Shown here piece after piece: positions 3,601 to 4,032 of a stretch of 4,520 nucleotides of DNA (positions are counted from its first letter, which is position 1; each line of letters starts with the position of its first letter). The notes beneath the pieces are model-generated. The model worked only from the letters and a program-made list of their open reading frames with translations. It made no database searches and had not been told where the DNA came from. Position numbers and translations under genes: made by a program. Origin of the DNA: a virus (taxonomy: Duplodnaviria; Heunggongvirae; Uroviricota; Caudoviricetes); IMG/VR virus record IMGVR_UViG_2541047126_000023; one strand, written 5' to 3'.

Positions 3601-3635
3601 TTGCTGTAACGGCAGAGTTAAGTAGGATTGCTGCG
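3601..3635 (+). promoter_or_regulatory. Candidate hok mRNA promoter (TTGCTG -N16- TAGGAT) with inferred transcript start near 3635
   Basis: The hexamers lie just upstream of GGGTGCTTGAGGCTATCTGCCTC (3635-3657), which resembles the 5' end of the R1 hok mRNA (GGCGCUUGAGGCUUUCUGCCUC, from memory). Confidence 0.35.
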
Positions 3636-3664
3636 GGTGCTTGAGGCTATCTGCCTCGGGCATG

Positions 3665-3733
3665 AACACCAACGGCAGATAGATAAAAGCCCCACCCGAC
3701 TATAAATCGAAGTGAGGCCCCTATATGCTCGTC
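3665..3733 (-). ncRNA. sok: Putative Sok-like antisense RNA (type I antitoxin) overlapping the hok leader and upstream start region
   Basis: On the minus strand, a TTGACC -35 (complement of 3764-3769) and a weak -10 CAATCT (complement of 3740-3745) sit at the position of the R1 sok promoter relative to the hok SD (GCGCAA-GGAGAAG in R1, GGTCAA-GGAGAAG here). The transcript extent is inferred, not seen. Confidence 0.3.
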
Positions 3734-3781
3734 ACATATAGATTGCCTCTTACGGACCGAAAGGTCAAGGAGAAGCAGGCT

Positions 3782-3937
3782 ATGAAGCAGCAAAAGGCGA
3801 TGTTAATCGCCCTGATCGTCATCTGTTTAATCGTCATAGTGACGGCACTGGTAACGAGGAAAGACCTCTGCGAGGTACGAATCCGAACCGGCCAGACGGA
3901 GGTCGCTGTCTTCACAGCTTACGAACCTGAGGAGTAA
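3782..3937 (+). CDS. hok: Hok/Gef-family type I toxin (HokD/RelF-like, 51 aa); in-frame upstream extension from ATG 3725 gives a 70-aa mok-equivalent frame
   Basis: Translation MKQQKAMLIALIVICLIVIVTALVTRKDLCEVRIRTGQTEVAVFTAYEPEE, with SD AGGAG at 3768-3772 (spacer 9). It has the hallmark Hok TM helix followed by TRKxLCExR and EVAxFxAYE. The upstream ATG 3725 has a GAGG SD at 3714-3717. Confidence 0.9.
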   Translation: MKQQKAMLIALIVICLIVIVTALVTRKDLCEVRIRTGQTEVAVFTAYEPEE

Positions 3938-4005
3938 GAGACCAGGCGGGGGAGAAATCCCTCGCCACCTCTGATGTGTCAGGCATCCTCAACGCACCCG
4001 CACTT

Positions 4006-4032
4006 AACCCGCTTCGGCGGGTTTTTGTTTTT
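4006..4032 (+). terminator. Intrinsic terminator of the hok transcript
   Basis: Hairpin AACCCGC-ttcg-GCGGGTT followed by TTTTTGTTTTTATTTT. Confidence 0.7.

What the first reader, a model, noticed from the sequence alone, without database searches (positions are those of the whole stretch)
3601..4032. Complete hok/mok/sok-type locus with conserved 5'/3' fold-back elements, not a leaderless relic
The 51-aa toxin is clearly Hok family and closest, from memory, to chromosomal HokD. The K-12 hokD copy, as I recall, is appended to relBE without its own leader. Here about 145 nt of hok-type leader are present: a 5' element GGGTGCTTGAGG (3635-3646) like the R1 hok mRNA 5' end; an upstream reading frame with its own SD; a minus-strand TTGACC -35 placed exactly where the sok promoter sits in R1; and a 3' element CCTCAACGCACCC (3987-3999) that can pair with the 5' element over 12 bp with one bulge, like the fold-back-inhibition interaction. 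A strong terminator follows. The locus therefore looks potentially active, for prophage maintenance or abortive infection.
Basis: partly seen in the sequence, partly recalled or inferred. Interest (0 to 1): 0.55.

Follow-up and report, generated by a model that had tools for sequence, protein, structure and literature searches.

The report
Intact prophage hokD/mok/sok toxin-antitoxin module
This is a complete, ordinary copy of the well-known hok/mok/sok RNA-controlled toxin-antitoxin module, of the hokD lineage, in a lambdoid prophage of E. coli O157-type strains; E. coli K-12 carries the same gene cut off from its leader.

Summary
Window 3601-4032 holds a full hok/mok/sok type I toxin-antitoxin module.

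- **Toxin:** a 51-aa Hok/Gef protein (Pfam 7e-22), identical to K-12 HokD at 50 of 51 residues.
- **Leader:** 147 nt, matching Rfam RF01794 at 103.9 bits (threshold 59).
- **mok:** an in-frame leader reading frame with its own ribosome-binding site.
- **Sok:** a minus-strand promoter laid out like the annotated K-12 sokC promoter, followed by a terminator hairpin.
- **5'/3' pairing:** GGGUGCUUGAGG with CCUCAACGCACCC, 12 bp with one bulge. It appears in the predicted minimum-energy fold and is the best partner for the 5' end anywhere in the mRNA. Only 2 of 2000 shuffles match it. All 30 related loci from eight genera keep it, with compensatory changes.

K-12 hokD matches only from window 3768 onward (98.9%), so it has lost the 5' element, the anti-SD box, mok and sok. 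The "not a leaderless relic" reading is supported.

None of this is new. The sequence is 100% identical to O157:H7 chromosomes where the gene is annotated hokD. Phage 933W annotates hokW/mokW/sokW, and hokW-sokW has been shown to work. Activity of this copy is inferred, not shown.

Small corrections: Sok is predicted at about 50-55 nt, not 65; its -10 box is weak; mok is in frame with hok, unlike in R1.

The parts
3601..3628 (+). Predicted hok mRNA promoter: -35 TTGCTG (3601-3606), 16-nt spacer, -10 TAGGAT (3623-3628), then 6 nt to the +1 G at 3635
   Evidence: Read from the sequence. A TAnnAT/TAnnnT hexamer sits at the same distance from the GGG start in all 30 related loci. The simple promoter scan did not call it.
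3635..4027 (+). Predicted full-length hok mRNA, about 393 nt (R1 is about 398 nt from my own knowledge)
   Evidence: The Rfam RF01794 match begins at 3635. Terminator at 4006-4023. The fold has z = -7.7. Homology with other hok loci runs from about 3627-3633 to 3999.
3635..3646 (+). 5' element GGGUGCUUGAGG, the 'tac' (translational activator) element
   Evidence: It pairs with the 3' element in the full-length fold and with AAGCCCC (3687-3693) in the 3'-truncated fold and in the Rfam consensus structure.
3687..3693 (+). Upstream complementary box ('ucb'), the anti-SD AAGCCCC
   Evidence: In the full-length fold it pairs with the mok SD (C3693-G3714, C3691-G3716). In the truncated fold it pairs with the 5' element. 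GCCCC is invariant or nearly so in 30 loci.
3714..3717 (+). mok Shine-Dalgarno GAGG
   Evidence: GAGGC is invariant in all 30 loci. It lies 7 nt before the ATG at 3725.
3725..3937 (+). mok leader reading frame, 70 aa, in frame with hok
   Evidence: Its 19 N-terminal residues match K-12 MokC at 15/19 and MokW at 11/19 (my count on the sequences printed).
3679..3733 (-). Predicted Sok antisense RNA, about 50-55 nt: single-stranded 5' tail GACGAGCAUAUAG, GC-rich hairpin, then UUUUAU
   Evidence: The 5' end is placed by analogy. Annotated sokC and sokW both start at mok ATG+8. Sequences compared. The fold gives -22.1 kcal/mol, z = -4.3. It covers the mok SD and ATG.
3740..3768 (-). Predicted Sok promoter: -35 TTGACC (3768-3763), 17-nt spacer, -10 CAATCT (3745-3740), then 6 nt to the +1 G at 3733
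   Evidence: The layout matches the region upstream of annotated K-12 sokC (TTGACC-17-CACTCT-6-G) and aligns with the sokW, sokB and R1-type regions. The -10 box is weak and the scan did not call it.
3767..3772 (+). hok Shine-Dalgarno AAGGAG, enclosed in a conserved hairpin
   Evidence: CAAGG (3766-3770) is invariant and the following AG (3771-3772) nearly invariant. The CUCUU/AAGGAG helix is in the alignment consensus fold.
3782..3937 (+). hok toxin gene, HokD lineage, 51 aa
   Evidence: Pfam PF01848 E=7e-22. 50/51 residues identical to K-12 HokD. PGAP names the identical gene hokD.
3920..3923 (+). UACG motif at Tyr47 (TAC 3920-3922), the candidate TadA A-to-I editing site (A3921, Tyr to Cys)
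   Evidence: TACGAA is invariant in 30 loci and unpaired in the predicted folds. Editing of hokD mRNA at this position (6%) is reported in PMC12214031. Editing was not tested here.
3946..3966 (+). Conserved 3' UTR hairpin GCGGGGGAG...CUCGCC
   Evidence: helix with compensatory changes. The equivalent last stem-loop stabilises the truncated R1 mRNA (PMC9841398).
3987..3999 (+). 3' element CCUCAACGCACCC, the 'fbi' (fold-back inhibition) element
   Evidence: Homology with distant hok loci ends exactly at 3999.
4006..4033 (+). Intrinsic terminator of the hok mRNA
   Evidence: 7-bp stem with 5 GC pairs, followed by a T run.

Best explanation
This is an intact hok/mok/sok type I toxin-antitoxin module of the hokD lineage. 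It sits in the early-right region of a lambdoid prophage, in the order paa - hokD - rem-like ORF - DUF968 gene (ydfU-like) - rusA.

The proposed mechanism is the R1 paradigm applied to elements that are present here.

1. A weak constitutive promoter (3601-3628) makes a stable mRNA of about 393 nt.
2. In that mRNA the 5' element (3635-3646) is clamped to the 3' element (3987-3999).
3. This leaves the anti-SD box (3687-3693) free to sequester the mok SD (3714-3717). The full-length mRNA is therefore not translated and does not bind Sok.
4. Slow 3' trimming removes the terminator and the 3' element. The 5' element then switches partner to the anti-SD box, which opens the mok translation start.
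5. Translation of mok (3725 onward) is coupled to translation of hok (3782-3937).
6. While the prophage is present, an unstable Sok antisense RNA of about 50-55 nt (3733 to about 3679, minus strand) pairs across the mok SD and ATG of the trimmed mRNA. The duplex is destroyed by RNase III.
7. If Sok supply stops, Hok is made. It inserts in the inner membrane and collapses the membrane potential.
8. Full toxicity may need TadA editing of Tyr47 to Cys, which would allow a Cys30-Cys47 disulfide.

Shown here: all sequence elements, the two alternative predicted pairings, and family-wide conservation and covariation. Inferred from R1, hokW and hokB: transcription, trimming, RNase III cleavage, toxicity and editing.
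For: - Pfam HOK_GEF matches the toxin.
- Rfam RF01794 scores 103.9 bits against a gathering score of 59 over 3635-3784. Its consensus structure contains the stem between the 5' element and the anti-SD box.
- The full-length fold contains the 5'/3' stem and the anti-SD/mok-SD pairing.
- The fold of the mRNA truncated at 3986 switches the 5' element to the anti-SD box.
- The 5'/3' duplex is the best site in the mRNA, and 2 of 2000 shuffles reach it.
- In 30 loci from Escherichia, Kluyvera, Photorhabdus, Erwinia, Pantoea, Pseudocitrobacter, Enterobacter and Klebsiella, every locus keeps a duplex of -15.8 to -26.0 kcal/mol. U4-A becomes C4-G in 8 loci, and G12-C becomes A12-U. Own 5'/3' partners pair better than partners swapped between loci (permutation p about 1e-4).
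- The alignment-based consensus fold independently recovers the outer 5'/3' helix. 22 of its 66 pairs carry compensatory changes.
- The Sok promoter and start align with annotated sokC, sokW and sokB. A Sok hairpin followed by a U run is predicted.
- The toxin matches HokD at 50/51 residues, and downstream synteny with the K-12 Qin prophage is kept (rem, DUF968/ydfU).
- The mechanism itself is described in PMC9841398.
- The relative hokW-sokW is experimentally a toxin and antitoxin pair that depends on RNase III and Hfq (PMC8621323).
Against: - There is no expression, processing or toxicity data for this copy.
- The Sok -10 box (CAATCT) and the hok -35 box are weak. The consensus scan called neither promoter.
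- Intact chromosomal hokA, hokB and hokC loci reportedly did not mediate post-segregational killing (bioRxiv 10.1101/2025.08.07.668861).
- The toxin differs from K-12 HokD at one transmembrane residue (T17I), with unknown effect.
- Minimum-energy folds of about 390 nt are only models.
- In the closest O157:H7 genome inspected (PV15-279) the matching prophage is disrupted by IS1203 insertions. The window is only 98.5% identical to it overall, so whether the source prophage is intact is unknown.
Confidence: 0.88

Rival explanations
1. The module is structurally intact but silent under natural conditions. It would be a conserved passenger, like the chromosomal hokA, hokB and hokC loci, that neither stabilises the prophage nor kills.
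For: Intact chromosomal hok loci reportedly fail in post-segregational killing and are not activated by rifampicin (bioRxiv 10.1101/2025.08.07.668861). Both promoters are weak. In the best-matching O157:H7 genome the prophage is degraded by IS1203.
Against: All regulatory elements are kept without a single disabling change. The leader and Sok segment is at least 99% identical in 600 genomes, and the whole locus in 559 records. The relative hokW-sokW is active (PMC8621323). A chromosomal single copy of R1 hok is toxic without Sok (PMC9841398).
Confidence: 0.25
2. The module is active, but its role is to help lysis and phage release after induction, as shown for hokW-sokW, rather than prophage maintenance or abortive infection.
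For: After mitomycin C, sokW RNA disappears and HokW is made in a RecA-dependent way. Deleting hokW-sokW halves phage yield (PMC8621323). Here the module lies in the sense orientation within the early-right gene string, so induced read-through transcription would run against the Sok promoter (inference).
Against: In 933W the hokW locus sits in a different part of the genome (58.4-58.7 kb of 61.7 kb), so the comparison is not positional. There are no data for this prophage, and the best-matching O157:H7 copy may be unable to produce phage.
Confidence: 0.35
3. The 5'/3' complementarity is a chance match or a by-product of shared ancestry, with no structural role.
For: Much of the 5' element is invariant: 5 of the 12 pairs never vary, and invariant pairs say nothing either way.
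Against: 2 of 2000 shuffles reach the observed energy. Compensatory U-A to C-G and G-C to A-U changes occur, and own partners pair better than swapped ones. The alignment-based fold recovers the helix independently. Homology with distant loci ends exactly at the 3' element. Experimental genetics on R1 support the pairing (PMC9841398).
Confidence: 0.02

Closest known systems
E. coli K-12 hokD (relF) in the Qin prophage
   Same: The toxin is identical at 50/51 residues. From window 3768 to 4032 the DNA is 98.9% identical, covering the hok SD, the ORF, the 3' UTR hairpin, the 3' element and the terminator. The downstream neighbours are the same (rem, a hypothetical gene, DUF968/ydfU).
   Different: The K-12 copy is joined to relBE 14 nt before the ATG. 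It lacks the hok promoter, the 5' element, the anti-SD box, mok and sok. The window has all of them, so it represents the undisrupted form of this lineage.
hokW-mokW-sokW of phage 933W / Sakai prophage Sp5
   Same: Same architecture. The toxin matches at 46/51 residues, the DNA is about 85% identical, and the 5' and 3' elements are identical. [quoted passage not shown]
   Different: The Sok hairpin region here is about 21 nt shorter and unrelated in sequence, so sokW is 71 nt against about 50-55 nt predicted here. The Sok 5' tail and the Mok N-terminus differ (11/19). The Sok promoter is TTGCCT-17-TAACCT there and TTGACC-17-CAATCT here. The module sits at a different place in the phage genome.
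hokC (gef)/mokC/sokC of E. coli
   Same: mok is in frame, with 15/19 identity in the leader peptide. The Sok promoter layout and start are nearly identical. Both have a short Sok hairpin, and the Sok 5' tails share AGCAUAUAGG.
   Different: The toxin matches at only 40/51 residues. hokC is at a chromosomal locus outside prophages. In K-12 an IS186 element has replaced its 3' element.
hok/mok/sok of plasmid R1 (parB), the paradigm
   Same: The same set of elements in the same order: the 5' element (GGCGCUUGAGG), the anti-SD box, mok, an antisense Sok across the mok start, the hok SD hairpin, the UACGAA motif, the 3' element and a terminal hairpin. mRNA length is similar.
   Different: The toxin matches at only 21/51 residues. 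R1 mok is in a different frame from hok (58 nt between the two ATGs), whereas here it is in frame (57 nt). The R1 element is on a plasmid, not a prophage.

Membership tests
[quoted passage not shown] | Small Hok/Gef-family membrane toxin ORF | tested here: met
   Pfam PF01848 E=7e-22, 77.2 bits against a cut-off of 22. The conserved Cys15 and Cys30 and the C-terminal AYE motif are present.
[quoted passage not shown] | hok mRNA leader with the conserved sequence and structure | tested here: met
   Rfam RF01794 scores 103.9 bits against a gathering score of 59, covering model positions 1-157 at 3635-3784 on the + strand.
[quoted passage not shown] | Overlapping mok leader ORF with its own SD upstream of hok | tested here: met
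   ATG at 3725 and GAGG at 3714-3717; 70 aa; 15/19 identity to the K-12 MokC leader.
[quoted passage not shown] | Long-range 5'/3' (tac/fbi) pairing that closes the full-length mRNA | tested here: met
   Present in the minimum-energy fold. Energy is -21.1 kcal/mol, reached by 2 of 2000 shuffles. Kept in 30 of 30 loci with compensatory changes.
[quoted passage not shown] | Alternative pairing of the 5' element with the anti-SD box, which otherwise sequesters the mok SD | tested here: met
   Predicted folds of the full-length and 3'-truncated RNA show the switch, and the stem is in the Rfam consensus structure. This is prediction only.
[quoted passage not shown] | Antisense Sok gene (promoter, short RNA, terminator) overlapping the mok translation start | tested here: inconclusive
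   At the sequence level it is present: TTGACC-17-CAATCT-6-G aligns with annotated sokC, sokW and sokB, and a hairpin with a U run is predicted. However, the -10 box is weak, the consensus scans called neither the promoter nor the minus-strand terminator, and expression is untested.
[quoted passage not shown] | 3' processing of the mRNA, RNase III cleavage of the Sok duplex, and toxicity of Hok | not testable with these tools
   These need Northern blots, RACE and induction assays. They have been shown for R1 (PMC9841398) and in part for hokW (PMC8621323).
HokD lineage | Near-identity to K-12 HokD and shared genomic neighbourhood | tested here: met
   50/51 residues identical, and 98.9% DNA identity over 3768-4032. 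The downstream rem-like ORF and DUF968 (ydfU-type) gene are the same, and PGAP names the gene hokD. No HokD-specific NCBIfam model reached its cut-off.
TadA-edited hok mRNAs (hokB, C, D, E) | UACG motif at the Tyr codon that is recoded to Cys | tested here: met
   TAC at 3920-3922 followed by G. TACGAA is invariant in 30 loci and unpaired in the predicted folds. Editing itself is not testable here; 6% editing is reported for K-12 hokD (PMC12214031).

The most novel reading that the evidence does not exclude
The module lies in the sense direction inside the early-right transcription unit, between the replication genes and the Q-like late-gene regulator. Induction-driven read-through could therefore collide with and silence the convergent Sok promoter. 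That would make the module an induction-coupled lysis or commitment switch rather than an addiction module.

In addition, this Sok variant is usually single-copy in genomes that can carry up to 10 hok-like matches. This would mean each co-resident prophage keeps its own private Sok specificity. Its SokC-like 5' tail might also allow cross-talk with the host hokC locus.
Probability: 0.2. Interest if true: 0.35.

Novelty: already known. Interest (0 to 1): 0.13.

Why it matters
The practical value is in annotation. RefSeq records mark only the hokD coding sequence. Nothing is annotated under the leader and Sok segment in any of the listed matches, although it occurs in 620 genomes. The Rfam family called 'sok' actually models the sense-strand leader.

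The window also shows cleanly what K-12 hokD lost and where: the breakpoint falls at window 3768, inside the Sok -35 box.

It could serve as a natural intact hokD allele for testing several things. These are whether prophage hok modules act in maintenance, lysis timing or phage exclusion; how specific Sok is among several hok loci in one genome; and TadA editing of Tyr47. None of this changes the current understanding of the family.

Tried and rejected
- **Promoter and terminator scan.** It found only the hok terminator and an unrelated promoter-like site at 4046-4075. It did not call the hok or Sok promoters or the Sok terminator. I placed those by alignment with annotated relatives instead.
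- **Sensitive blastn against plasmids.** It reached phage-plasmid hokD-type loci but not R1 hok. Hit H96 turned out to be a leader fragment with no annotated hok gene and was dropped. I recovered an R1-type locus by tblastn with the R1 Hok sequence recalled from memory. That sequence matched plasmids at 100%.
- **NCBIfam.** No HokD-specific model passed its cut-off, so the HokD assignment rests on identity and synteny.
- **Pair counting on the MAFFT alignment.** This under-counts the inner six pairs, because loci without the bulge are shifted by one column. I addressed this with per-locus duplex folding and a test in which 5' and 3' partners were swapped between loci.
- **isrK match at 3946-4027 (24.9 bits, threshold 50).** I rejected it as a family assignment. 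It is the hok 3' UTR hairpin plus the terminator.
- **Excluded loci.** L031 (degenerate Shigella copy), L012 (3' element replaced by IS186), L005 (5' element disrupted), L006 and L019 (relE-joined copies), and the contig-end fragments L011, L015 and L036 were left out of the covariation set.
- **Exact source of the window.** It was not found among complete E. coli genomes. The best full-length match is 97.3%, although 3601-4032 itself is 100% identical to O157:H7 chromosomes.

Full report
**1. What is in the sequence**

GGGTGCTTGAGG lies at 3635-3646 and CCTCAACGCACCC at 3987-3999. A 51-aa ORF runs from 3782 to 3937. A 70-aa ORF starts at 3725, in the same frame, with GAGG 7 nt upstream. GGTCAA at 3763-3768 reads as TTGACC on the minus strand. 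An intrinsic terminator lies at 4006-4023 and is followed by a T run.

The 51-aa product is a Hok/Gef protein (Pfam PF01848, E=7e-22). The 150 nt from 3635 to the hok AUG match Rfam RF01794 end to end at 103.9 bits, against a gathering score of 59. That Rfam family is named 'sok', but the match is on the hok-sense strand and ends at the hok AUG. The model therefore describes the mRNA leader, not the antisense RNA.

**2. Is the 5'/3' complementarity more than chance?**

Yes, on four grounds.

- The minimum-energy fold of 3635-4027 is -162.8 kcal/mol, with z = -7.7 against shuffles. It pairs nucleotides 1-12 with the 3' element as 12 bp with one bulged C.
- This site is the best duplex partner for the 5' element anywhere in the mRNA, at -21.1 kcal/mol. 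Only 2 of 2000 dinucleotide shuffles of the 3' UTR reach that value.
- I collected 34 related loci from species-representative genomes. I added phage, plasmid and K-12 loci. BLAST homology with distant loci typically runs from just before 3635 to exactly 3999, from the 5' element to the 3' element.
- In an alignment of 30 complete loci from eight genera plus an R1-type plasmid locus, every locus keeps a 5'/3' duplex of -15.8 to -26.0 kcal/mol.

The covariation is specific. Position 4 changes from U-A to C-G in eight loci, and position 12 from G-C to A-U in four. Own 5'/3' partners pair better than partners swapped between loci (-20.4 against -18.9 kcal/mol, permutation p about 1e-4). The alignment-based consensus fold independently recovers the outer 5'/3' helix. 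22 of its 66 pairs carry compensatory changes, including pairs in the leader hairpins and in the long helix that encloses the hok start.

**3. The rest of the regulatory switch**

In the full-length fold, GCCCC at 3689-3693 pairs with the mok SD (C3693-G3714, C3691-G3716). When the RNA is cut at 3986, removing the 3' element and the terminator, the 5' end re-pairs with AAGCCCC at 3687-3693. This stem is also in the Rfam consensus structure. It is the published switch between tac/fbi and tac/ucb pairing (PMC9841398).

On the minus strand, the 45 nt upstream of 3733 align with the regions upstream of the annotated sokC, sokW and sokB RNAs and with the R1-type sequence:

| Locus | -35 | Spacer | -10 | To the +1 G |
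|---|---|---|---|---|
| Window | TTGACC | 17 nt | CAATCT | 6 nt |
| K-12 sokC | TTGACC | 17 nt | CACTCT | 6 nt |

Both annotated RNAs start at mok ATG+8, which corresponds to window 3733. The predicted RNA has a single-stranded 5' tail, a GC-rich hairpin and UUUUAU (-22.1 kcal/mol, z = -4.3). It covers the mok SD and ATG.

The hok promoter -10 box (TAGGAT, 3623-3628) sits where all 30 loci have a TAnnAT/TAnnnT hexamer. The simple promoter scan called neither promoter. Both are weak by consensus.

**4. Which Hok it is, and the K-12 comparison**

| Compared with | Identical residues of 51 |
|---|---|
| K-12 HokD | 50 (the one difference is T17I) |
| HokW | 46 |
| HokC | 40 |
| HokA, HokB, HokE, R1 Hok | 17-21 |

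K-12-type genomes match the window only from 3768 onward, at 98.9%. Direct comparison shows identity beginning at AGGAGAAGCAGGCTATG, 14 nt before the start codon. Upstream of that is unrelated sequence and relE. K-12 keeps the hok SD, the ORF, the 3' element and the terminator. It has no 5' element, anti-SD box, mok or sok. Downstream synteny is shared (rem-like ORF, a hypothetical gene, DUF968/ydfU). The window shows the undisrupted form of the hokD lineage.

**5. Context**

The module lies in a lambdoid prophage, downstream of DnaT-like and P-like replication genes, a DUF1627 gene, a fimbrial pseudogene and the paa/adfO adhesin gene. It lies upstream of rusA and a Q-like late-gene regulator, and all of these genes are on the same strand.

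- The 432-bp locus is 100% identical to O157:H7 chromosomes and 99.8% identical to PPompW prophages, where the mok frame is annotated 'gef: phage maintenance protein'.
- Sequences matching this locus occur in 4721 of 5426 complete E. coli genomes, with a median of 2 and up to 10 matches per genome.
- The particular leader and Sok variant of this window (3676-3745) occurs in 620 genomes, almost always once. Nothing is annotated under it in the 11 listed full-length matches.
- The leader is a mosaic. Its Sok hairpin is about 21 nt shorter than sokW's and unrelated in sequence. Its Mok N-terminus and Sok promoter resemble hokC/sokC, while the toxin is HokD-like.

**6. Mechanism and function**

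The most likely mechanism is the R1 paradigm, because every required element is present.

1. The full-length mRNA is inert, closed by the 5'/3' stem.
2. Slow 3' trimming releases the 5' element.
3. The RNA refolds and opens the mok translation start.
4. Translation of mok is coupled to translation of hok.
5. Sok pairing followed by RNase III cleavage blocks this while Sok is being made (PMC9841398).

The relative hokW-sokW has been shown to be a toxin-antitoxin pair that depends on RNase III and Hfq. After mitomycin C its Sok RNA disappears, HokW is produced and phage release increases (PMC8621323).

The invariant UACGAA motif places Tyr47 (TAC, 3920-3922) at the site where hokC, hokD and hokE mRNAs are edited by TadA to a Cys codon. 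Editing of K-12 hokD was measured at 6% (PMC12214031).

Which biological role applies here is not decided by my data. The candidates are maintenance, lysis assistance and phage exclusion. Intact chromosomal hok loci have been reported inactive in post-segregational killing (bioRxiv 10.1101/2025.08.07.668861).

**7. Novelty**

This is already known. The family, its RNA switch and its covariation are textbook material. Enrichment of hok in prophages has been described (same preprint). 933W carries annotated hokW/mokW/sokW, and this exact gene is annotated hokD in RefSeq. What remains is an annotation gap (mok, Sok and the RNA elements are unmarked) and a tidy illustration of the K-12 breakpoint. 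Interest is low.

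Noticed in passing
window 3566-3589: A perfect 24-bp palindrome, CCGATATGGGAA/TTCCCATATCGG, lies 12 nt upstream of the hok -35 box, at the junction between the paa gene and the hok module. The upstream regions of the other hok loci examined do not share it. No T run follows it, so it is not an obvious terminator. It could be a protein-binding site or a recombination scar.
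   Followed up: partly
window 2688-3446 (and 2401-2700): This is the paa/adfO adhesin gene (Pfam SBP_bac_11; PGAP 'AcfC family adhesin Paa'), preceded by a stretch of only 30% GC. It looks like a virulence gene inserted just upstream of the hok module.
   Followed up: partly
window 1094-1828: An in-frame TAG at 1145-1147 interrupts the DUF1627 gene, which is a single 735-nt CDS in PPompW prophages. In the O157:H7 genome PGAP starts the gene just after this stop.
   Followed up: partly
window 1958-2436: Two short ORFs correspond to a fimbrial-protein pseudogene, which PGAP marks 'frameshifted; internal stop' in the matching O157:H7 prophage.
   Followed up: no
window 3635-3784: Rfam RF01794 is named 'sok antitoxin', but it matches the hok-sense strand and ends at the hok AUG. 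It models the mRNA leader, not the antisense RNA, so strand calls based on this family are misleading.
   Followed up: yes
window 3946-4027: A sub-threshold match to the Salmonella prophage sRNA family isrK (24.9 bits, threshold 50, E=0.02) covers the hok 3' UTR hairpin, the 3' element and the terminator. It is probably just a resemblance between two hairpins.
   Followed up: no
window 3676-3745: This leader and Sok variant occurs in 620 of 5426 complete E. coli genomes, nearly always once, with nothing annotated under it in the listed full-length matches. Matches to the hok locus as a whole reach 10 per genome. The predicted Sok 5' tail shares AGCAUAUAGG with K-12 SokC, which raises possible cross-talk with hokC.
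   Followed up: partly
L019 (Kluyvera sp. CHPC 1.2972) and L006 (E. coli): A Kluyvera genome carries the same arrangement as K-12, with hokD joined to a relE-like upstream sequence. The relBE-hokD fusion is therefore not confined to E. coli K-12.
   Followed up: no
L012 / L047 (K-12-type hokC) and L005: In K-12-type hokC, IS186 sequence replaces the 3' element. In L005 the 5' element is disrupted while the 3' element is kept. These are natural examples of hok loci disabled at one end of the long-range stem.
   Followed up: partly
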